Numbered from the stretch's first letter, positions 1 to 6,991 are shown. The stretch: DNA of 64,000 nt from a bacterium HR10 (GCA_002923315.1 BEHM01000017.1:1000-64999), one strand, 5' to 3'. Notes: a model not told the origin generated them from the letters alone. A program made the numbers and translations.

Positions 1-581
1 CGGTAGAACTCCTCAGCGGCGATCGTGCGCTCCCCGCGCGGACCGATGAGTCGAAGTCGAGCGCCTAAGGCGATCATCACCGGAGCACCGTCAGAGGAGG
101 AGACAGCCCAACAGCGCGTTCCGCCAGGAGCGACGGGACAGGTTGTTCCATCCTTTTTCAAGCAAAATCCGATCGCTTCGCGCCAGAAGAAGGTTTGATC
201 GTAGTAGGTGCAGCGCGTATCCACGCAGAGGTTCCCCCCGACCGTGCCCATGGAACGGATCGGCGGATGAGCGACCATCGCGAAGGCTCGCGCGAGAGCC
301 GGATAGGCGAGGACCACTTCGCTCTGTGCGAGCACGTGCGCGAGCGTGAGACCTGCGCCGAGCGTCACGCCCTCGCGTCCGGTCCATGCGAGACGGGTCA
401 GCTCAGGAATGTGCCGTACGCTGACGAGAACGGCGGGTTCGATCTGTCGCCGCTTCATCTTCGGATAGAGATCCGTCCCTCCGGCGACGATCCGAGCCCG
501 CGAGCCGTGATCGCTCAAGATGCGGAGCGCCTCCTCCAGCGACCGCGGAGCATAGTATCGAAACGGTGGAAGTCGAAGCAT
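1..581 (-). CDS. FAD-binding medium subunit of a xanthine-dehydrogenase-family molybdoenzyme (HcrB/CoxM-like); C-terminus cut by window edge
   Basis: Not in the ORF track because it runs off the window. Hand translation of the minus strand from ATG 581 (GGAGGGG 4 nt upstream, 12 nt after the large-subunit stop) gives MLRLPPFRYYAPRSLEEALRILSDHGSRARIVAGGTDLYPKMK...GTVGGNLCVDTRCTYYDQTFFWREAIGFCLKKDGTTCPVAPGGTRCWAV. This is a typical FAD-subunit N-terminus plus a Cys-rich loop. Confidence 0.8.
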   Translation of the reverse strand, partial: MLRLPPFRYYAPRSLEEALRILSDHGSRARIVAGGTDLYPKMKRRQIEPAVLVSVRHIPELTRLAWTGREGVTLGAGLTLAHVLAQSEVVLAYPALARAFAMVAHPPIRSMGTVGGNLCVDTRCTYYDQTFFWREAIGFCLKKDGTTCPVAPGGTRCWAVSSSDGAPVMIALGARLRLIGPRGERTIAAEEFY

Positions 582-593
582 TGTGCCCCTCCT

Positions 594-2984
594 TCACGTG
601 AGATCACCGAGCGATCGCCATTCCGGTGGCGGCTCGACGCGAATCGGCTCCGGCCAGGCGAGCGAGGGAATGGAGGTGGGGCCGATGCGTCCAGATCCGC
701 CGCGCGCCTTATCCTCCAAGCCCTTGAGCACCTTCTCCGGCGTGATGGGCAGCTCATCAATCCGCACTCCGACGGCGTCATAGACGGCATTGGCGATGGC
801 CGGCGGGATGGGAAGCAAAGGGCCTTGTCCGGCTTCCTTCGCTCCGAATGGACCGTGGGGATCATCGGTCTCGATCAGAAAACACTCCACCTCCGGCATC
901 TCCCATGTCGTCGGGCTTTTGTAGTCGAGCATCGAAGGCGCCGTGTGCACTCCGAGACGCGAGCGGAAAGTTTGTTCCTCCATGAGCGCTTCCCCCAAGC
1001 CCATATAGACGCTGCCGTGAATCTGTCCTTCGACCAGGCGGGGATTGATCGCGCGCCCGATGTCATGAGCGATCCAGATCTTCTCGACCCGAACGAATCC
1101 GGTCTCCGGATCCACGGACACCTGAGCGACGCACGCCGAATAGCTATAGGACGGCGAAGGTCCCACCCCCGCCCCCTTGTATCGTCCCAGCGGTTTCGGT
1201 GGCGTATAGCTGCCGACGGCCCCCAATGTACCGAATCGCGCTTCCGCGAGCTGAGCGGCCTCAGCGAAATCCAATCCCCGATCCGGATCAGCACGATCGA
1301 AGATGCGCCGCCCGCGCGCCAGGAGCTGATCTTCGGGGACATCGAGGCGCTCGGCCGCCGCGCGAAAGAGCAAGTGCCGCAGCCGCTCGGCCGCCTCCAC
1401 AGCCGCATTTCCCGCCATGACGGTCACGCGGCTCGAATAGCTCCCCAAATCTACCGGTGTCAGGTCCGTATCCGCCGTCACGACGCGGACATCTTCTGGG
1501 AGAATCCCGAGGATCTCGGCGACGATGTAGGCGAGGATGGAGTCTGACCCCTGTCCGATGTCCGCGCTCCCGCAGAAGACGGTCACCCCTCCCTCTCGAT
1601 CAATTTTGATCTGAACCCCGGAATGCGGCATGTCGTTCCAATAGATCGGCAATCCCGCCCCGCTCAAATATGCGCTGCAGGCGAAGCCCACCCCCCGCCC
1701 GAACGGCAAGCGCCGGAACTTCTCGCGAAATCCCGAGGCCTCGACGACGCGATCAATACACGCTCGGAGCCCGCAACTGGAGATGCGCAGCCAGTTCACG
1801 GTGAGCGATGGGGCCTCGACGATCTGACGCCGCCGCATCTCGACGGGATCGAGGCCTAAGTCTTCGGCGATCTTGTCCAGATGCACCTCCAGCGCGAAGC
1901 GCGGCTGCGGGGTCCCGTGCCCGCGTTTGGGACCGCACGGCGGCTTGTTCGTGAAGACGCGCACGCCCTCGAACTTGTAGCGCGGGATCTTGTAGGTGAC
2001 CGTCTGCAGCGCTCCCGTATAGTACGTCGTCGCGACGCCATAGCTGCCATACGCCCCTCCGTCGAGGAAAGATCGAACATGCATGGCCGTGATCGTCCCA
2101 TCGCGCCGAACGCCCGTCTTGATCCACATGAGCACGGGATGCCGCCCCCGATGCACATAGAACACTTCCTCGCGCGTGAGCGTGATCTTCACCGGGCGAC
2201 CGGTCAACATGGCGAGCTTCGCGACGACGATCTCGTGCGAGAACGGATCGCTCTTGCCGCCGAACCCCCCGCCGACGGGCGTCGCGATCACGCGAATACG
2301 ATGGGGAGGCAGGCCGAGCACCTTCGCCAGCGCGCGATGCACATAGTGGGGCGTTTGCGTGCTGCTCCAGAGCGTGAGCCGACCATCGGGCCCGTAGTGC
2401 GCCACGGCGGCATGCTGCTCCAGAGGCAGGTGCGTGCTGCCGGCGTAGAAGAAGATGTCCTCCCGCACATAGTCCGCCTGCGCGAACCCCTCGGCCACAT
2501 CCCCGAACTCCAGTGAGACCAGCTTGTGCATATTCGGCCCATCCCCGTACTCGTGAATGCGCACGGAGGATTCGGCCAGTGCCTGTTCCATGGTCAGGAG
2601 GGCGGGCAGCGGTTCGTATTCGACCTCGATGAGTCGGAGGGCCTCCTCGGCCGTCCATTCATCAACGGCGGCGACGGCGGCCACCGGATCGCCCACGAAC
2701 CGCACCTTCTCCACGCAGAGCGCTTCTTCATCCTGGCTCACCGGGAGAATCCCGAAGCGCGTCGGCAGATCCCGCCCGGTGAGGACGGCGTGGACCCCGG
2801 GCACAGCCCGCGCGCGGCTCACGTCTATCCGCCGAATCCGCGCATGCGCGTGCGGACTGCGGAGGATCTTCGCATAGAGCATGCGCGGCAAGTGAAGATC
2901 GTCCGCATAGCGCGTCTCTCCCGTACACTTCGATAATGCGTCCACCTTGGGCCACGGCTTACCGATCACGTTGAGGTCACGCAT
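594..2984 (-). CDS. Xanthine-dehydrogenase-family molybdopterin-binding large subunit (HcrA/CoxL-like)
   Basis: Track ORF 594..3092 trimmed to ATG 2984 (MRDLNVIGKPWPKVDALSKCTGETRYADD). CAGGAGG lies 6 nt upstream and the start is 17 nt after the small-subunit stop. GGGFGGK and GLGEALMEE family motifs are present. Confidence 0.9.
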   Translation of the reverse strand: MRDLNVIGKPWPKVDALSKCTGETRYADDLHLPRMLYAKILRSPHAHARIRRIDVSRARAVPGVHAVLTGRDLPTRFGILPVSQDEEALCVEKVRFVGDPVAAVAAVDEWTAEEALRLIEVEYEPLPALLTMEQALAESSVRIHEYGDGPNMHKLVSLEFGDVAEGFAQADYVREDIFFYAGSTHLPLEQHAAVAHYGPDGRLTLWSSTQTPHYVHRALAKVLGLPPHRIRVIATPVGGGFGGKSDPFSHEIVVAKLAMLTGRPVKITLTREEVFYVHRGRHPVLMWIKTGVRRDGTITAMHVRSFLDGGAYGSYGVATTYYTGALQTVTYKIPRYKFEGVRVFTNKPPCGPKRGHGTPQPRFALEVHLDKIAEDLGLDPVEMRRRQIVEAPSLTVNWLRISSCGLRACIDRVVEASGFREKFRRLPFGRGVGFACSAYLSGAGLPIYWNDMPHSGVQIKIDREGGVTVFCGSADIGQGSDSILAYIVAEILGILPEDVRVVTADTDLTPVDLGSYSSRVTVMAGNAAVEAAERLRHLLFRAAAERLDVPEDQLLARGRRIFDRADPDRGLDFAEAAQLAEARFGTLGAVGSYTPPKPLGRYKGAGVGPSPSYSYSACVAQVSVDPETGFVRVEKIWIAHDIGRAINPRLVEGQIHGSVYMGLGEALMEEQTFRSRLGVHTAPSMLDYKSPTTWEMPEVECFLIETDDPHGPFGAKEAGQGPLLPIPPAIANAVYDAVGVRIDELPITPEKVLKGLEDKARGGSGRIGPTSIPSLAWPEPIRVEPPPEWRSLGDLT

Positions 2985-3001
2985 CGCCCGCCTCCTGATG
3001 C

Positions 3002-3502
3002 TCAGCGACCATCGGTCGCCGCCGAACGCACGTCCCGCAGCTGCGCGGCCGCGCGCTCGACCGCCTCCAGGATTTGGATGTACCCCGTGCACCGACAGAG
3101 ATTCCCAGAGAGCGCTTCTGCGATCTCCTGCCGCGTCGGGGTCGGATTTCGATCAAGCAGAGCCTTCGCCGAGAGCACAACGCCCGGCGTGCAATATCCG
3201 CACTGCGCTGCCCCCATCTCGGCGAAGGCTTGCTGCAAGGGATGCGGACGTCCGCGCTCCATGAGTCCCTCGATGGTGAGGATCTCCCGCCCCTGCAGCT
3301 CGATCGGCAGCACCAGGCACGAGAGCACCGGCTCTCCATCCACCAGGACCGTGCACGCGCCGCATTCCCCAAGTTCGCACCCATGCTTCGTCCCAGTCAA
3401 GTTCAGATCCTCACGCAGGACTTCCAGAAGCGTCTTGAACACGGGCACGGCGAGCGTGTGCAGTTCTCCATTGACCTTCAGCGTGATGAGATGTTTCTCC
3501 AT
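3002..3502 (-). CDS. Molybdenum-hydroxylase small subunit with two [2Fe-2S] clusters (HcrC/CoxS-like)
   Basis: Track ORF, 166 aa. Contains GCELGECGAC...C (plant-type cluster) and CGYCTPG...LCRCTGY (second cluster). Confidence 0.9.
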   Translation of the reverse strand: MEKHLITLKVNGELHTLAVPVFKTLLEVLREDLNLTGTKHGCELGECGACTVLVDGEPVLSCLVLPIELQGREILTIEGLMERGRPHPLQQAFAEMGAAQCGYCTPGVVLSAKALLDRNPTPTRQEIAEALSGNLCRCTGYIQILEAVERAAAQLRDVRSAATDGR

Positions 3503-3511
3503 CCCTTCCTC

Positions 3512-4135
3512 CTACTTCGCAGTCCCGGTCTCGCGAGCTTTCAAGCCCCGGACCAAATAATCGGCGAAGACCTCACCGATCTCCTGCGCCGACCGAGGGC
3601 CATGCGGGGAGAACCACCGGACCGTCCAATTGATCGCCCCCAGGATGGCGAACGCCATGAGCTTCGGATCCCCCTCCCGAAAGATCCCCCGCTCCATGCC
3701 CTCCCGGATGATCTCTCGCACTCCGCGTTCATACCGATCGCGCTTCTCAATGATCTTCCGCAGCCGACGCGGGGAGAGCAGATGGAAGTCGGCGTGCATG
3801 GCCGAGGCGTTCAACTCATCCAGGATGATGCCCACCTGTTCTCGGATCAGCCGATGCAGTTGCTCATCGGGAGGAACCCCGCTCCGTCGGATCTCCTCCA
3901 GCCGAGCGAGCAGCAGATCGAGCGAATAGTCCTGGCAGAAGTAGAGGATCTCCTCCTTGCTCCGGAAATAGTAGTAGAGATTCCCCTTGGTCATGTGCAG
4001 CCGCCGCGCGATCTCCTCCATCGTCGTCGCCGAGACCCCCCGTTGTCGGAACGCCTCAGCAGCGCACCGCAAGATCTCGAGCTTCGTCCGCTCGATCCTC
4101 TGCCTCCGCCTGAGGTCTCTTGACCGTTTGTTCAA
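3512..4135 (-). CDS. TetR-family transcriptional regulator
   Basis: HTH region ILRCAAEAFRQRGVSATTMEEIARRLHMTKGNLYYYFRSKEEIL. The track ORF 3512..4378 runs across the tRNA gene, so I trim to TTG 4135 (GGAGGA 8 nt upstream). The start is uncertain. The gene ends 9 nt before the small-subunit start. Confidence 0.75.
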   Translation of the reverse strand: MNKRSRDLRRRQRIERTKLEILRCAAEAFRQRGVSATTMEEIARRLHMTKGNLYYYFRSKEEILYFCQDYSLDLLLARLEEIRRSGVPPDEQLHRLIREQVGIILDELNASAMHADFHLLSPRRLRKIIEKRDRYERGVREIIREGMERGIFREGDPKLMAFAILGAINWTVRWFSPHGPRSAQEIGEVFADYLVRGLKARETGTAK

Positions 4136-4167
4136 TTTTCCGATCCTCCGGTCAAAAGTTCGAGGAA

Positions 4168-4197
4168 ATGATACGCGAACGGGTCGAGGATCGTCAA
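4168..4197 (-). promoter_or_regulatory. Sigma70-type promoter for tetR and the hydroxylase operon: TTGACG-18-TATCAT
   Basis: Minus strand reads ccgTTGACGatcctcgacccgttcgcgTATCATttcc, about 30 nt upstream of the TTG start. Confidence 0.5.
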
Positions 4198-4317
4198 CGG
4201 GTGAAGGGCGCGGGGACTCGACGCGCCTCTCGCCCCGTCCCCGGCCCTCAAGGCCGCATGATCGGGCGAAAGGGCACGAGGCCTTCTGCGTCCCTGCGAG
4301 GGCGCGGACGTCGGTTC

Positions 4318-4347
4318 TTGACAATCCCACCAAACCCTGGCTATAGT
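4318..4347 (+). promoter_or_regulatory. Sigma70-type promoter for tRNA-Gln: TTGACA-18-TATAGT
   Basis: cTTGACAatcccaccaaaccctggcTATAGTgagaaatcgaacgagc is followed by tRNA position 1 at 4364. Confidence 0.6.
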
Positions 4348-4363
4348 GAGAAATCGAACGAGC

Positions 4364-4438
4364 TGGGAGCTCGTCCAATTGGCAGGACAGCGGACTCTGG
4401 ATCCGCGAATCGGGGTTCGAATCCCTGGCTCCCAGCCA
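4364..4438 (+). tRNA. tRNA-Gln (anticodon CUG), CCA encoded
   Basis: Folded by hand, 75 nt. Acceptor TGGGAGC/GCTCCCA, D arm GTCC-AATTGGCA-GGAC, anticodon arm GCGGA-CTCTGGA-TCCGC, T arm CGGGG-TTCGAAT-CCCTG, discriminator G plus CCA. It has the U1-A72 pair typical of bacterial tRNA-Gln. Confidence 0.9.
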
Positions 4439-4460: not shown

Positions 4461-5750
4461 ATGGACGGAGCCCGCTCACCCCAGCTCCTCTCGCCCTCCA
4501 CACGCGAAACGCTCGCAGCGATACGGCGTCCCGGGTTCTCCACCGTCTTTCGGAACCGGGGGTTTCGCACCCTCTGGCTCGCGCAGGCCGTGAGCGGGAT
4601 GGGGAGTTGGCTCGTGGTGTTCGCTCTCCTGAATCTGGGAGGCTTCCGATTCCAGCTCTCGGCCGGCGCACTTGGGGGAATGGCCGCGCTCTTCTTCCTG
4701 ACGCTCGCATTGGTCTTCCCGCTGGCGGGAGCGTTCGTGGATCGGGCGAGCCCACGACGGGTGATGATCATGGCCGACAGTCTCCGTGCCGGCGTGATGG
4801 CCCTGCTCTGGCTCGCGTGGGAGCCGCCGCTCATCTATCCGGTCATGCTTCTGACCGGATGCATGACGTGTTTCTTCCTCTCGGCGCAGATGGCCCTGCT
4901 CCCGTCGGTGGTGGAGCGGGAAGAGTTGCTCGTCGCCAATGCCGTGAGCGCTCAGACGCAACAGGTGAACGGGATCCTGGCTCCACTTCTGGCTGGTGCG
5001 CTCATCGCGCGTCTGGGCGAGCGCCTGTGTTTCGCTCTGAACGGGTTGAGCTTTCTCTTCTCCGCCCTCTGCCTCTCTCGCCTCGCGCCGCGCCAGGAGG
5101 GCCACATCGCGCGCGCTGAGCGCCGCTCCTATCGCCCTCGGGCATTCACGCGCGAGCTTCGGAGCGCCCTCAATCTGTTCCTGCGCGATCGCCTCCTTGT
5201 CTCGGTGATGGGATTGGCCATGCTGCTGATCGTGGCAGCGAGCGCCGTCAATGTGTTCGGGGTCATCTACGTGCGCGACGTCTTGCGCGCCGGTCCACAT
5301 GCTTTCGGATCGCTCCTCTCCGCCCTTGGCGCCGGCATGGCGATCGGGATCGGGCTCGTGGGGAGATATGCCCACGCCGTCCGGCGCATCGCCCTCATTC
5401 GCGCGAGCGCAGTGGCGATTGGCCTCGGCTTGATCAGCGTGACGTGGTTCACCCGTGTGCTCGACGTACTCATCGGCGCCTTCCTCATGGGCGTGGCGGC
5501 AGCGGCCTTCCTCATCCCGACGCAGACGCTCGTTCAAGAGCGCACACCTGCGCGGTTTCTCGGGCGCATGAGCGGCCTCTTGTGGTCGCTCGTGTTCGCC
5601 ACTCAAGCCCTCTCGGTCACGCTCGTCGGCGGCTTGGCCTCGGTGCTGACGCTGCCGTCCCTCTACCGCGCGCTGGGGATGGGGCTCTTGGTTTTCACGG
5701 GCCTCACGACGCTCTATGCGCAGGAACCCCGACGCCTCGCCTCGGCGTGA
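4461..5750 (+). CDS. MFS transporter
   Basis: Track ORF, 429 aa. Multiple hydrophobic spans and an N-terminal FRNRGFRTLWLAQAVSGMGSW motif typical of MFS_3/EntS-like exporters. Confidence 0.8.
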   Translation: MDGARSPQLLSPSTRETLAAIRRPGFSTVFRNRGFRTLWLAQAVSGMGSWLVVFALLNLGGFRFQLSAGALGGMAALFFLTLALVFPLAGAFVDRASPRRVMIMADSLRAGVMALLWLAWEPPLIYPVMLLTGCMTCFFLSAQMALLPSVVEREELLVANAVSAQTQQVNGILAPLLAGALIARLGERLCFALNGLSFLFSALCLSRLAPRQEGHIARAERRSYRPRAFTRELRSALNLFLRDRLLVSVMGLAMLLIVAASAVNVFGVIYVRDVLRAGPHAFGSLLSALGAGMAIGIGLVGRYAHAVRRIALIRASAVAIGLGLISVTWFTRVLDVLIGAFLMGVAAAAFLIPTQTLVQERTPARFLGRMSGLLWSLVFATQALSVTLVGGLASVLTLPSLYRALGMGLLVFTGLTTLYAQEPRRLASA

Positions 5751-5851: not shown

Positions 5852-6991
5852 ATGAAGGAGCTGCAGGACATTTTGCGAGCGCTCGGCGAAGGCCATGACA
5901 AGGGAGGACCGATGGCCTTGGCCACGGTCGTTCATGTCGAGGGATCGGCCTATCGGCGCGAGGGAGCGAAGCTGCTGCTCTCCCCCAAGGGTGAGATGGT
6001 GGGCAGCATCAGCGCTGGATGCTTAGAGGGGGATGTCCTGGAGTGGACGCGCCGCGTCCTCGAAAGCGGAACGCCGATATTGCGGCACTATGATCTCACC
6101 AGTGAAGACGAGCTGGTGTGGGGATTCGGCATGGGCTGCAATGGCCGGATTGAAGTGTGGATCGAACCGCTCACGCTGGCGCAGCCATATCTGGAGCGCG
6201 CGCGCGAGGTCTTCGAGCGCGAGCGAGCCGTGGCTGTAGCAACGCTCGTCGGCGTCTCGGAAGGTTCGACGTTGAAACCCGGGTCGAAGCTCCTGATCCC
6301 CGCCGAAGGGAACCCCTCGGGCACTCTCGGCGACGCCGCCTTGGATGCCGCCGTCGAGCGCGATGCGCGCGCGCTTCTGGAAACCGGGCGATCGAAGACC
6401 GTGGCCTATGAGGCCGCTCACCTCGGGAGCGCGGCCTGGGTGGGAGAAGCGCGCGTGTTCATTGACTGTTTCCTCCCCCCTCCGCACTTGGTTGTCTTCG
6501 GAGCAGGAGCCGATGCGATCCCTCTGGTCCGATTTGCGAAAGAAGCGGGGTTTCGCGTCACGGTCGTGGACCATCGGCCGCGGTTCGTCACGCCGGACCG
6601 TTTCCCCTGGGCGGACCGTCTGATCCTGGCCCACCCGGAGGAAGCGCCGCATCGGCTCGCGCTCACCCGAGGGATGTATGTCGTCGTGCTCACGCACAAC
6701 TTCCACGTAGATGCGAAGCTGTTGGCGTGGTTGCTCGCGAGTCCGGTGGAGTATATTGGTCTGCTCGGCCCACGAGAGCGACGCGAGCTGCTGTTGCGCA
6801 ATCTGCGCGAGCAGGGGATCGAACCGTCTCCGGAAGGGATGCGGAAGCTCTATGCTCCGGTCGGCTTGGACATCGGCGCGGAGGGACCGGAGCAGATCGC
6901 CCTTTCGATCGTGAGTGAAATCCTGGCTGTGAAGAACCGCCGCGCGGGGACCTTTCTCCGCGAGCGTCAGAAGCCCATTCACGCCGATTGA
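5852..6991 (+). CDS. xdhC: XdhC/CoxI-family molybdenum-cofactor insertion chaperone
   Basis: Track ORF, 379 aa. MALATVVHVEGSAYRREGAKLLL...GSISAGCLEGDV N-domain and a Rossmann-like C-domain (VVFGAGADAIPL). GAGGAGG Shine-Dalgarno sequence. Confidence 0.85.
   Translation: MKELQDILRALGEGHDKGGPMALATVVHVEGSAYRREGAKLLLSPKGEMVGSISAGCLEGDVLEWTRRVLESGTPILRHYDLTSEDELVWGFGMGCNGRIEVWIEPLTLAQPYLERAREVFERERAVAVATLVGVSEGSTLKPGSKLLIPAEGNPSGTLGDAALDAAVERDARALLETGRSKTVAYEAAHLGSAAWVGEARVFIDCFLPPPHLVVFGAGADAIPLVRFAKEAGFRVTVVDHRPRFVTPDRFPWADRLILAHPEEAPHRLALTRGMYVVVLTHNFHVDAKLLAWLLASPVEYIGLLGPRERRELLLRNLREQGIEPSPEGMRKLYAPVGLDIGAEGPEQIALSIVSEILAVKNRRAGTFLRERQKPIHAD

What the first reader, a model, noticed from the sequence alone, without database searches (positions are those of the whole stretch)
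1..3502. hcrCAB-ordered molybdenum hydroxylase whose FAD subunit carries a four-Cys loop (predicted extra [4Fe-4S])
Seen in sequence:
- Gene order is small 2x[2Fe-2S] subunit, then Mo large subunit, then FAD subunit, all tightly spaced behind a tetR gene.
- The FAD subunit, which I translated by hand because it is absent from the track, contains NLCVDTRCTYYDQTFFWREAIGFCLKKDGTTCPVAPGGTRCWAV (nt 111-227).
- Its Cys spacing is C124-x15-C140-x7-C148-x8-C157.

Established knowledge:
- Ordinary CoxM/XdhB-type FAD subunits lack such a loop.
- 4-hydroxybenzoyl-CoA reductase of Thauera aromatica (hcrCAB, the same gamma-alpha-beta order) has an insertion in the beta subunit that binds a [4Fe-4S] cluster. 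That cluster lets ferredoxin drive the enzyme in the reductive direction.
- From memory its ligands are Cys122/138/146/155, which would be identical spacing. This needs checking.

Inference: this is a ferredoxin-dependent reductive dehydroxylase-type member, not an oxidase or CO dehydrogenase. Its substrate is unknown. That would be unexpected next to otherwise aerobic-looking housekeeping genes.
Basis: partly seen in the sequence, partly recalled or inferred. Interest (0 to 1): 0.6.

Follow-up and report, generated by a model that had tools for sequence, protein, structure and literature searches.

The report
Hydroxybenzoyl-CoA reductase-like enzyme, variant clade
A hot-spring acidobacterium carries a three-gene molybdenum enzyme closely modelled on the anaerobic 4-hydroxybenzoyl-CoA reductase, including its extra iron-sulfur loop, but it belongs to a widespread, unstudied sister clade that has lost the family's catalytic glutamate and travels with benzoyl-CoA degradation genes, among them oxygen-dependent ones.

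Summary
On the minus strand lie tetR, a 2x[2Fe-2S] subunit (3002-3502), a molybdenum large subunit (594-2987) and an FAD subunit (3-581; 336 aa once completed outside the window). The genes are 9-14 nt apart.

**HcrB-type loop.** The FAD subunit aligns without gaps to Thauera aromatica HcrB through the insertion. C124/C140/C148/C157 fall on HcrB's four loop cysteines (C-x15-C-x7-C-x8-C) and are invariant in 37 relatives.

**Placement.** The large subunit scores twice as high on HcrA as on any other solved enzyme, and two trees place it in a supported clade with true HcrA.

**Not an orthologue.**
- Identity to HcrA is 43%, and all three subunits fall below NCBI's curated cut-offs.
- Its clade occurs in at least 584 genome loci of Acidobacteriota, Methylomirabilota, Chloroflexota and Gemmatimonadota.
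- In all 80 members read, the family's catalytic Glu is Gln.

**Context.**
- In relatives the operon abuts boxC, boxB and aryl-CoA ligase genes.
- This genome has boxB, boxC and a bcrCBAD-like cluster.
- Across 151 Blastocatellia genomes the enzyme co-occurs with these genes.

It is most likely a ferredoxin-driven reductive dehydroxylase that makes benzoyl-CoA. One caveat: oxidising PaoB-type enzymes also carry a Cys4 insert, so the cluster alone does not set the direction.

The parts
3512..4378 (-). tetR-family regulator gene, co-oriented with the operon and ending 9 nt before the small-subunit gene. The start codon is uncertain; the domains lie within 3512-4090.
   Evidence: ORF. PF00440 TetR_N 2e-16 and PF17932 TetR_C_24 1.1e-31. 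The same TetR cluster (c18) stands upstream in the close relatives L005-L008 and in L031.
3002..3502 (-). Small subunit (HcrC-like, 166 aa) with two [2Fe-2S] domains. It has no signal peptide.
   Evidence: PF00111 and PF01799. TIGR03193 scores 184.4 bits, below its 257.8 cut-off. The PaoA model aligns only from its position 52, so no Tat leader is present. Hits 1rm6_C at 1.5e-46.
594..2987 (-). Molybdenum-cofactor large subunit (HcrA-like, 797 aa).
   Evidence: PF01315, PF02738 and PF20256. 1rm6_A at 1.1e-198, 665.7 bits, against 331 bits for the next hit. TIGR03194 scores 907.7, below its 994.55 cut-off. Trees.
825..827 (-). Codon CAA = Gln721 of the large subunit. It stands where the xanthine-oxidase family has its conserved catalytic Glu (HcrA Glu at PDB sequence position 726). 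Glu718, three residues upstream, is shared with HcrA.
   Evidence: Coordinates. Alignments to HcrA, NdhM, CoxL and PaoC. Q in 80 of 80 window-clade loci and E in 79 of 80 Thauera-clade loci. E in 106 of 119 other representatives.
3..581 (-). First 193 codons of the FAD subunit (HcrB-like). The gene continues to contig position C17:570 (L001:570-1580), giving 336 aa.
   Evidence: PF00941 and PF03450 on the full protein. TIGR03195 scores 279.8, below its 404.55 cut-off. The AlphaFold2 model has pLDDT 87.6 and its top PDB fold match is 1rm6_B.
111..212 (-). Codons C124 to C157: the C-x15-C-x7-C-x8-C insertion predicted to bind a [4Fe-4S] cluster.
   Evidence: Coordinates. Gap-free alignment to the HcrB loop. 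Invariant in alignment A2. The exact spacing occurs in 68 of 72 window-clade and 75 of 75 Thauera-clade FAD subunits; the other four have four Cys with a longer Cys2-Cys3 spacer.
4461..5750 (+). Divergently oriented MFS transporter gene. It may import the substrate; this is an inference.
   Evidence: PF07690 MFS_1 2.9e-33. Syntenic in L004-L008 as cluster 14.
5852..6991 (+). XdhC/CoxI-family gene, encoding a molybdenum-cofactor insertion chaperone of xanthine-oxidase-family enzymes.
   Evidence: PF02625 and PF13478. Syntenic in L004-L008 as cluster 12, and also next to the operon in L039 and L040. The role of XdhC is described in PMC2997495 (abstract).

Best explanation

**Proposed mechanism, by analogy with T. 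aromatica 4-HBCR.** Electrons from a reduced low-potential ferredoxin enter at a [4Fe-4S] cluster held by C124/C140/C148/C157 of the FAD subunit. They pass through FAD and the two [2Fe-2S] clusters of the small subunit to the molybdenum cofactor. There the para-hydroxyl of 4-hydroxybenzoyl-CoA, or a closely similar para-substituent such as the amino group of 4-aminobenzoyl-CoA, is removed reductively to give benzoyl-CoA. Benzoyl-CoA is then consumed by this genome's BoxB/BoxC epoxide pathway (contig C29) and/or its bcrCBAD-like reductase (contig C24).

**Shown here.**
- The subunit and cofactor-binding architecture.
- Identity of the loop with HcrB's.
- Phylogenetic placement next to true HcrA.
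- Loss of the hydroxylase-type catalytic Glu.
- Gene-neighbourhood and co-occurrence links to benzoyl-CoA metabolism.

**Inferred.** The electron donor, the direction, the exact substrate and the TetR control.

The enzyme is not an orthologue of HcrCAB. It belongs to a distinct sister clade that is widespread outside the Proteobacteria.
For: **Architecture**
- Domains of all three subunits and the C-A-B gene order.
- The Cys4 loop aligns gap-free with HcrB and is invariant.
- The FAD-subunit model's best PDB fold match is 1rm6_B.

**Placement**
- HcrA is by far the best solved relative.
- The HCR models are the best NCBIfam hit for the large and FAD subunits; for the small subunit the HCR model is second by 2 bits (186.5 against 184.4).
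- The window clade and the Thauera HcrA clade share a clade with support 95 in two trees. That clade lies inside a clade with support 100 whose three sampled members (P0021, P0023, P0032) all have loop-bearing FAD partners.
- 31 alignment columns are shared by both clades and rare in other family members.

**Direction**
- Gln721 replaces the Glu that the family needs for hydroxylation, in 80 of 80 clade members. PMC11760930 calls this Glu essential.

**Substrate class**
- 40 of 81 loci have acyl-CoA or box genes within 6 kb: 21 have boxB/boxC, 25 an aryl-CoA ligase, 14 a CoA-transferase.
- The sampled BoxC and BoxB score above their equivalog cut-offs.

**Own genome**
- BoxB scores 734 bits against a 499 cut-off.
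- BoxC scores 754.5 against 712.3.
- A bcrCBAD-like cluster lies next to a BadH-like gene.
- There are five 2-oxoacid:ferredoxin oxidoreductase hits.

**Co-occurrence in 151 Blastocatellia genomes**
- 31 of 39 BoxB+ genomes and 24 of 24 BcrC-like+ genomes have the enzyme.
- Only 24 of 96 genomes with neither gene have it (Fisher p = 4e-13, not corrected for phylogeny).
Against: - All three subunits score below NCBI's equivalog cut-offs for HcrCAB. Identity to Thauera HcrA, HcrB and HcrC is only about 43, 33-36 and 51%.
- The Glu that true HcrA keeps is Gln here, so the chemistry may differ.
- In this genome no CoA ligase or benzoyl-CoA gene lies next to the operon. Its three benzoate-CoA-ligase-like genes are below the family cut-off.
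- 24 of 71 Blastocatellia genomes with the enzyme have neither boxB nor a bcrC-like gene.
- 64 columns are fixed differently in the two clades.
- A [4Fe-4S] insert also exists in oxidising PaoB-type enzymes.
- No transcript or biochemical data are available.
Confidence: 0.6

Rival explanations
1. It is a reductive dehydroxylase or deaminase of the same design, but its substrate is not a benzoyl-CoA precursor. Candidates are a free phenolic or heteroaromatic compound, as with the xanthine-oxidase-family urolithin dehydroxylase UcdCFO, or a different aryl-CoA.
For: - The subunits are below the HcrCAB equivalog cut-offs.
- 64 columns differ between the clades and the Glu is Gln.
- In this lineage the operon sits beside an MFS transporter, tetR and xdhC, and not beside CoA genes.
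- 24 of 71 carrier genomes lack boxB and bcrC-like genes.
- Family members that dehydroxylate non-CoA phenols exist (PMC11760930).
- HCR-like proteins are proposed for 4-aminobenzoyl-CoA deamination (PMC7500099).
Against: - Half of the relatives' loci carry aryl-CoA ligase, CoA-transferase or boxBC genes directly beside the operon.
- All 24 bcrC-like-positive genomes in the class carry the enzyme.
- UcdC lacks the [4Fe-4S] loop.
Confidence: 0.22
2. It is an oxidising hydroxylase or aldehyde oxidoreductase like PaoABC or the Methylobacillus aldehyde oxidase. In this reading the [4Fe-4S] cluster is an exit point for electrons to an acceptor.
For: - PaoB and the 5y6q medium subunit carry a Cys4 insert at the same site.
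- The host class is largely aerobic (own knowledge).
- xdhC and an MFS transporter are ordinary companions of oxidising family members.
Against: - The general-base Glu is Gln in every clade member.
- The Cys pattern is HcrB-type and not PaoB-type; only three of four Cys align with PaoB.
- There is no Tat leader on the small subunit.
- PaoC scores 293.9 against a cut-off of 1180.
- The large subunit groups with HcrA.
Confidence: 0.08
3. It is an accessory redox module of the BoxA-less box pathway. It would either feed electrons to the BoxB di-iron epoxidase or oxidise the aldehyde product of BoxC, and would not act upstream of benzoyl-CoA.
For: - The operon lies directly upstream of boxC-boxB in many Methylomirabilota loci.
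- BoxA is absent from this genome, from 8 of 8 genomes with such clusters, and from all 39 BoxB+ Blastocatellia genomes.
Against: - 8 of 39 BoxB+ genomes lack the enzyme and 40 of 71 carriers lack BoxB.
- It co-occurs at least as tightly with bcrC-like genes.
- In Chloroflexota the operon stands with CoA ligases and no box genes.
- Aldehyde oxidation would need the missing Glu.
- An aldehyde dehydrogenase already sits next to boxC here.
Confidence: 0.05

Closest known systems
4-hydroxybenzoyl-CoA reductase HcrCAB of Thauera aromatica (PDB 1RM6/1SB3); HbaBCD of Rhodopseudomonas palustris
   Same: - Gene order gamma-alpha-beta.
- The same three subunits and domains.
- A beta-subunit insertion with four Cys at identical spacing.
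- Best solved relative of the large and FAD subunits, and third by score for the small subunit (nicotinate dehydrogenase and glyceraldehyde oxidoreductase small subunits score higher).
- Shared clade on the large-subunit tree.
- Shared 'GAKE' glutamate (Glu718) and 31 signature columns.
   Different: - Identity is only 43, 33-36 and 51% for the three subunits.
- All three fall below NCBI's equivalog cut-offs.
- The catalytic Glu is Gln.
- 64 columns are fixed differently.
- Hosts are Acidobacteriota, Methylomirabilota, Chloroflexota and Gemmatimonadota, not denitrifying or phototrophic Proteobacteria.
- Neighbours are often the oxygen-dependent boxBC genes.
PaoABC periplasmic aldehyde oxidoreductase of E. 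coli (PDB 5G5G) and Methylobacillus aldehyde oxidase (PDB 5Y6Q)
   Same: - Three-subunit xanthine-oxidase-family enzymes.
- The FAD subunit has a Cys4 insertion at the same site, binding a [4Fe-4S] cluster.
   Different: - They oxidise their substrates.
- PaoABC is exported via a Tat leader.
- Their Cys pattern differs.
- They keep the catalytic Glu.
- Their large subunits are distant (about 215 bits against 666 for HcrA).
Urolithin C dehydroxylase UcdCFO of Enterocloster (PMC11760930)
   Same: A xanthine-oxidase-family enzyme that removes a phenolic hydroxyl reductively.
   Different: - UcdC lacks the [4Fe-4S] loop.
- UcdO keeps the Glu (E741).
- Its substrate is a free polyphenol.
- It is stimulated by NADH.
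Aerobic CO dehydrogenase CoxSML and xanthine dehydrogenase XdhABC types
   Same: The overall fold and cofactor set (Mo cofactor, two [2Fe-2S] clusters, FAD).
   Different: - Their FAD subunits have no insertion. This genome's own CoxM-like paralogue on C24 shows this.
- They have the Glu.
- They score half as high.
- The sampled XDH-like representative has the gene order B-C-A.

Membership tests
Xanthine oxidase family, three-subunit Mo-FAD-FeS enzymes | Large subunit with a/b-hammerhead and two Mo-cofactor-binding domains; small subunit with two [2Fe-2S] domains; FAD subunit with FAD_binding_5 and CO_deh_flav_C | tested here: met
   Pfam hits are all far above the gathering scores.
Xanthine oxidase family, three-subunit Mo-FAD-FeS enzymes | Conserved active-site glutamate (bovine XO Glu1261 equivalent), the general base for hydroxylation | tested here: not met
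   The window has Gln721, aligned to the Glu of HcrA, NdhM, CoxL and PaoC. Q stands there in 80 of 80 clade members.
4-hydroxybenzoyl-CoA reductase (HcrCAB/HbaBCD) | Insertion in the beta (FAD) subunit with four Cys that bind a [4Fe-4S] cluster | tested here: met
   Gap-free alignment to 1rm6_B with the same spacing; invariant in 37 sequences. Actual cluster binding is not testable here.
4-hydroxybenzoyl-CoA reductase (HcrCAB/HbaBCD) | Gene order hcrC-hcrA-hcrB | tested here: met
   The same order is seen around the Thauera-clade large subunits.
4-hydroxybenzoyl-CoA reductase (HcrCAB/HbaBCD) | Large subunit falls within or next to the clade of characterised HcrA | tested here: met
   It forms a sister clade inside a clade with support 95. 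It is not inside the Thauera/Rhodopseudomonas-type clade itself.
4-hydroxybenzoyl-CoA reductase (HcrCAB/HbaBCD) | Scores above NCBIfam equivalog cut-offs TIGR03194, TIGR03195 and TIGR03193 | tested here: not met
   907.7 against 994.55; 279.8 against 404.55; 184.4 against 257.8.
4-hydroxybenzoyl-CoA reductase (HcrCAB/HbaBCD) | Genomic link to 4-hydroxybenzoate-CoA ligase and a benzoyl-CoA degradation pathway | tested here: inconclusive
   Such genes are not adjacent in this genome. boxB, boxC and a bcrCBAD-like cluster lie on other contigs. They are adjacent in 40 of 81 related loci. Co-occurrence across the class is shown.
4-hydroxybenzoyl-CoA reductase (HcrCAB/HbaBCD) | [quoted passage not shown] | not testable with these tools
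   This needs an enzyme assay.
PaoABC-type aldehyde oxidoreductase | Tat leader on the FeS subunit, PaoB-type Cys4 pattern, and PaoC equivalog score | tested here: not met
   The PaoA model aligns only from its position 52, and PaoC scores 293.9 against 1180. Only three of four Cys align with PaoB.
Aerobic CO dehydrogenase (CoxSML) | CoxL equivalog score; FAD subunit without insertion | tested here: not met
   TIGR02416 scores 320.7 against 991.15. The FAD subunit has the insertion, unlike CoxM.

The most novel reading that the evidence does not exclude
The Gln-type HcrCAB clade defines a hybrid route for phenolic acids in largely aerobic or microaerobic soil and hot-spring phyla.

**Proposed route:**
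1. CoA activation of the phenolic acid.
2. An 'anaerobic-style' ferredoxin-driven reductive dehydroxylation to benzoyl-CoA.
3. Oxygen-dependent ring epoxidation by a BoxB/BoxC pathway that works without BoxA.

On this reading, the replacement of the family's catalytic Glu by Gln, with Glu718 retained, marks an enzyme committed to the reductive direction. It may also be adapted to work when oxygen is present.
Probability: 0.3. Interest if true: 0.7.

Novelty: new variant of a known kind. Interest (0 to 1): 0.52.

Why it matters
4-HBCR is the textbook example of a xanthine-oxidase-family enzyme that runs 'backwards'. It has been studied almost only in a few anaerobically growing Proteobacteria.

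This work shows that a sister clade with the same [4Fe-4S] entry loop is common:
- It is in about half of the sampled Blastocatellia genomes.
- It is in at least 584 genome loci across several phyla usually regarded as aerobic.
- It is often wired to the oxygen-dependent box pathway.

The clade also provides a natural Glu-to-Gln variant at the residue thought essential for the family's chemistry. That makes the role of this residue in reductive dehydroxylation directly testable.

For annotation, these genes should not be named xanthine, CO or aldehyde dehydrogenases. Their presence also should not be read as proof of anaerobic aromatic degradation.

Tried and rejected
- **Ligand numbering.** I tried to read the 4-HBCR structure paper (Unciuleac 2004) to confirm the ligand numbers and substrate-pocket residues. 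It is not held. The numbering therefore rests on the PDB sequence alignment and a secondary citation.
- **Cys geometry.** I wanted Cys-Cys distances from the AlphaFold2 model, but coordinates are not exposed. Only confidence and fold matches were usable; loop pLDDT is about 70.
- **Transcription.** 20 DNA runs, mostly from hot springs, hold part of the locus. The only RNA run offered holds none of the sampled words. There is no expression evidence.
- **Earlier notes.** Earlier notes on this genome held nothing on aromatic metabolism.
- **The idea that the loop is unique to HCR.** Rejected.
  - PaoB-type inserts exist.
  - HcrB-type loops also partner more distant large subunits (P0021, P0023, P0032).
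- **The idea that this genome's other two family enzymes are similar.** Rejected. The C24 FAD subunit has no insert, and the C8 one has an insert without the Cys.
- **ORF picking.** My first greedy ORF picker chose antisense ORFs in this high-GC DNA. I corrected it with a GC3 filter and with the ORF listing.

Full report
**What is there**

The window is contig C17:1000-64999 of a 3.13-Mb, 87.5%-complete assembly. Four co-oriented genes lie on the minus strand:

| Gene | Window coordinates | Evidence |
|---|---|---|
| TetR regulator | ORF 3512-4378 | Domains within 3512-4090 |
| 2x[2Fe-2S] subunit | 3002-3502 (166 aa) | Pfam domains |
| Large subunit | 594-2987 (797 aa) | Hammerhead and two Mo-cofactor-binding domains |
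| FAD subunit | 3-581 (cut by window edge) | Complete gene C17:570-1580, 336 aa, FAD_binding_5 plus CO_deh_flav_C |

The genes are 9, 14 and 12 nt apart, each preceded by an AGGAGG-like site. An MFS transporter gene (4461-5750) and an xdhC-family chaperone gene (5852-6991) lie divergently upstream.

The closest public relatives are hot-spring MAGs labelled Acidobacteriota or Blastocatellia, 90-97% identical in the large subunit. They share this gene layout.

**The loop**

The quoted peptide and the positions C124/C140/C148/C157 are exact.

- Against all PDB sequences, the best hit of the 193 residues is the beta subunit of T. aromatica 4-HBCR (1rm6_B, 3.4e-36). The alignment crosses the insertion without a gap and places the four Cys on four HcrB Cys with the same C-x15-C-x7-C-x8-C spacing.
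- CoxM, CutM, QorM, NdhF and XdhA-type chains align only up to residue about 119 and resume after the insertion, so they lack it.
- In 37 FAD subunits from the window's clade and from the Thauera clade, the four Cys are invariant.
- The exact spacing occurs in 68 of 72 and 75 of 75 complete subunits respectively. The other four have four Cys with a longer Cys2-Cys3 spacer.
- An AlphaFold2 model (pLDDT 87.6) has 1rm6_B as its best PDB fold match.
- PMC11760930 states that this HcrB loop binds a 4Fe-4S cluster. I could not open the structure paper to confirm ligand numbers.

**Is the loop diagnostic?**

It is not diagnostic by itself, for two reasons.

First, E. coli PaoB (5g5g_B) and the Methylobacillus aldehyde oxidase medium subunit (5y6q_B) are oxidising enzymes. 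Both carry a Cys4 insertion at the same site, with another pattern, and only three of the four Cys align. A 2026 preprint describes this motif as characteristic of PaoABC.

Second, HcrB-type loops also partner more distant large subunits:

| Representative | Spacing in partner FAD subunit | Gene order |
|---|---|---|
| P0021 | C-x16-C-x7-C-x8-C | C-A-B |
| P0032 | C-x15-C-x7-C-x9-C | A-B-C |
| P0023 | C-x13-C-x7-C-x8-C | A-B-C |

These all fall in one large-subunit clade with SH-aLRT support 100. A representative outside that clade (P0041) has a 289-aa loop-less FAD subunit in B-C-A order next to purine-type genes.

**Placement of the large subunit**

- HcrA scores 665.7 bits (1.1e-198) and the next solved enzyme 331.
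- The best NCBIfam model is 4hydrxCoA_A at 907.7 bits, against 567 for XdhA.
- All three subunits are below the curated equivalog cut-offs: 907.7 against 994.55, 279.8 against 404.55, and 184.4 against 257.8.
- Identity to Thauera-clade HcrA, HcrB and HcrC is about 43, 33-36 and 51%.

I built trees from the best 150 representatives of 1.84 billion proteins, 25 members of the window's clade, 15 named HcrA relatives and this genome's two paralogues. In those trees:

- The window clade has support 99-100.
- The Thauera clade has support 100.
- The two clades sit together with a few intermediate lineages in a clade with support 95, by both FastTree and IQ-TREE.

So the enzyme is a sister lineage of true 4-HBCR. 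It is not nested in aldehyde, nicotinate or CO enzymes.

**A difference from HcrA**

The motif G-A-K-E-A-S-E-G of HcrA reads G-A-K-E-A-G-Q-G here.

- Gln721 (codon 825-827) aligns with the Glu of HcrA, nicotinate dehydrogenase NdhM, mycobacterial CoxL and PaoC.
- PMC11760930 calls this Glu essential for catalysis across the family, and the urolithin dehydroxylase keeps it.
- All 80 loci of the window clade have Gln, and 79 of 80 Thauera-clade loci have Glu.
- 106 of 119 other representatives have Glu, and most nearest outlying lineages keep it.
- Both HCR clades share an extra Glu three residues upstream (Glu718), where most others have Gly.
- 31 columns are shared signatures of the two clades, and 64 are fixed differently.

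Loss of the general base argues against an oxidising hydroxylase. It also means the enzyme cannot be assumed to work exactly like HcrA.

**Context in relatives**

At least 584 genome loci encode a large subunit of this clade. The 80 best are 65-97% identical and come from Methylomirabilota, Chloroflexota, Gemmatimonadota, Acidobacteriota and others.

I clustered the ORFs around those 80 loci:

- The C-A-B order is conserved.
- 40 of 81 loci have acyl-CoA or box genes within 6 kb.
- 21 have boxB/boxC, 25 have an aryl-CoA ligase (benzoate-CoA-ligase family or PaaK-like), and 14 have a two-subunit CoA-transferase.
- The recurrent Methylomirabilota layout is hcrC-A-B, an XRE-cupin regulator, boxC, boxB, a RidA-like gene and a benzoate-CoA-ligase-family gene.
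- The sampled BoxC (910 bits against a 712 cut-off) and BoxB (862 against 499) are above their equivalog cut-offs.

**Context in this genome**

No such gene is adjacent to the operon here, but the genome is built around benzoyl-CoA:

- BoxB lies at C29:29105-30499 and scores 734 against a 499 cut-off.
- BoxC lies at C29:14470-16113 and scores 754.5 against 712.3, with an aldehyde dehydrogenase beside it.
- Contig C24 carries a Thauera-order bcrC-B-A-D-like cluster with two different ATPase subunits, next to a BadH-like dehydrogenase and a sigma-54 activator. All best hits are benzoyl-CoA reductase models, below their cut-offs.
- Five 2-oxoacid:ferredoxin oxidoreductase genes could supply reduced ferredoxin.

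**Co-occurrence**

In 151 Blastocatellia genomes:

| Genome set | Number | With the HcrA-like enzyme |
|---|---|---|
| All genomes | 151 | 71 (30 of 53 genera) |
| BoxB+ | 39 | 31 |
| BcrC-like+ | 24 | 24 |
| Neither BoxB nor BcrC-like | 96 | 24 |

Fisher's exact test gives p = 4e-13, without correction for shared ancestry. The 24 carriers that have neither gene remain unexplained.

**Conclusion**

However, the argument 'extra cluster, therefore reductive' needed other support. That support comes from the missing catalytic Glu, the phylogeny and the benzoyl-CoA context.

The most likely function is ferredoxin-driven reductive removal of a para substituent from an aryl-CoA, with 4-hydroxybenzoyl-CoA as the first candidate, to give benzoyl-CoA. 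Donor, direction and substrate are inferences.

The setting among aerobic-type genes is typical of this clade. That is the interesting point: an 'anaerobic' enzyme design is coupled in many genomes to the oxygen-dependent box pathway.

Noticed in passing
Own genome contig C24:11139-18818 (locus L090:2140-9819): A Thauera-order bcrC-B-A-D-like four-gene cluster with two HGD-D subunits and two different BcrAD-type ATPases. It lies next to a BadH-like dehydrogenase, an Amidohydro_2 protein and a sigma-54 activator. The best hits of the four bcr-like subunits and the BadH-like gene are benzoyl-CoA reductase/pathway models but fall below their equivalog cut-offs; the Amidohydro_2 protein and the sigma-54 activator have no such hits. 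BcrC-like genes occur in 24 of 151 Blastocatellia genomes, a class regarded as aerobic.
   Followed up: partly
Own genome contig C29:22510-30514 (locus L175): boxB is followed by a PNPOx-like 184-aa flavoprotein, two family-III CoA-transferases, a 575-aa UbiD-family decarboxylase, a GntR regulator, a thiolase and UbiX. The transferase, UbiD and UbiX set resembles the succinyl-CoA:phthalate CoA-transferase / phthaloyl-CoA decarboxylase route to benzoyl-CoA (own knowledge). Here it is joined to the aerobic box pathway.
   Followed up: partly
Own genome; genomes behind L022, L028, L034, L047, L048, L052, L062, L079; 151 Blastocatellia genomes: BoxB and BoxC are present without any BoxA reductase. 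There is no BoxA hit in this genome, in 8 of 8 genomes with hcrCAB-boxCB clusters, or in any of the 39 BoxB+ Blastocatellia genomes. What reduces BoxB in these organisms is open. The PNPOx-like protein beside boxB is a candidate.
   Followed up: partly
L001:1-522 minus strand (contig C17:1-522, just left of the window); also L004 and L005 downstream of the operon: The gene downstream of the FAD subunit encodes a coiled-coil protein with tandem copies of EERVGRLEERVGRLEEAMARLAEAQART. It is cut by the contig end here. It is complete (about 370-415 aa, with a non-repetitive C-terminal domain) in the close relatives. Its function is unknown.
   Followed up: no
Own genome contig C8:36814-40411 (locus L091): A third xanthine-oxidase-family enzyme. 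Its FAD subunit has an insertion at the same site as HcrB but without three of the four ligand Cys (it keeps only the Cys aligned with C119 and C124), so it looks like a degenerate or different loop.
   Followed up: partly
Protein representatives P0002, P0007, P0011, P0013, P0035, P0036, P0050: Several close relatives of the large subunit are 890-950 aa long and match the query only from about residue 165-185 onward. This suggests natural fusions of the small FeS subunit to the large subunit in lineages between the window clade and true HcrA.
   Followed up: no
L016, L030, L039, L040 (Bipolaricaulota, Acetothermia, Fraserbacteria): In these FAD subunits the spacer between the second and third loop Cys is about 19-20 residues longer (for example ...WCKKAPGPEGWPLVPERAPEKNEVPCRV...). 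All four Cys are kept.
   Followed up: partly
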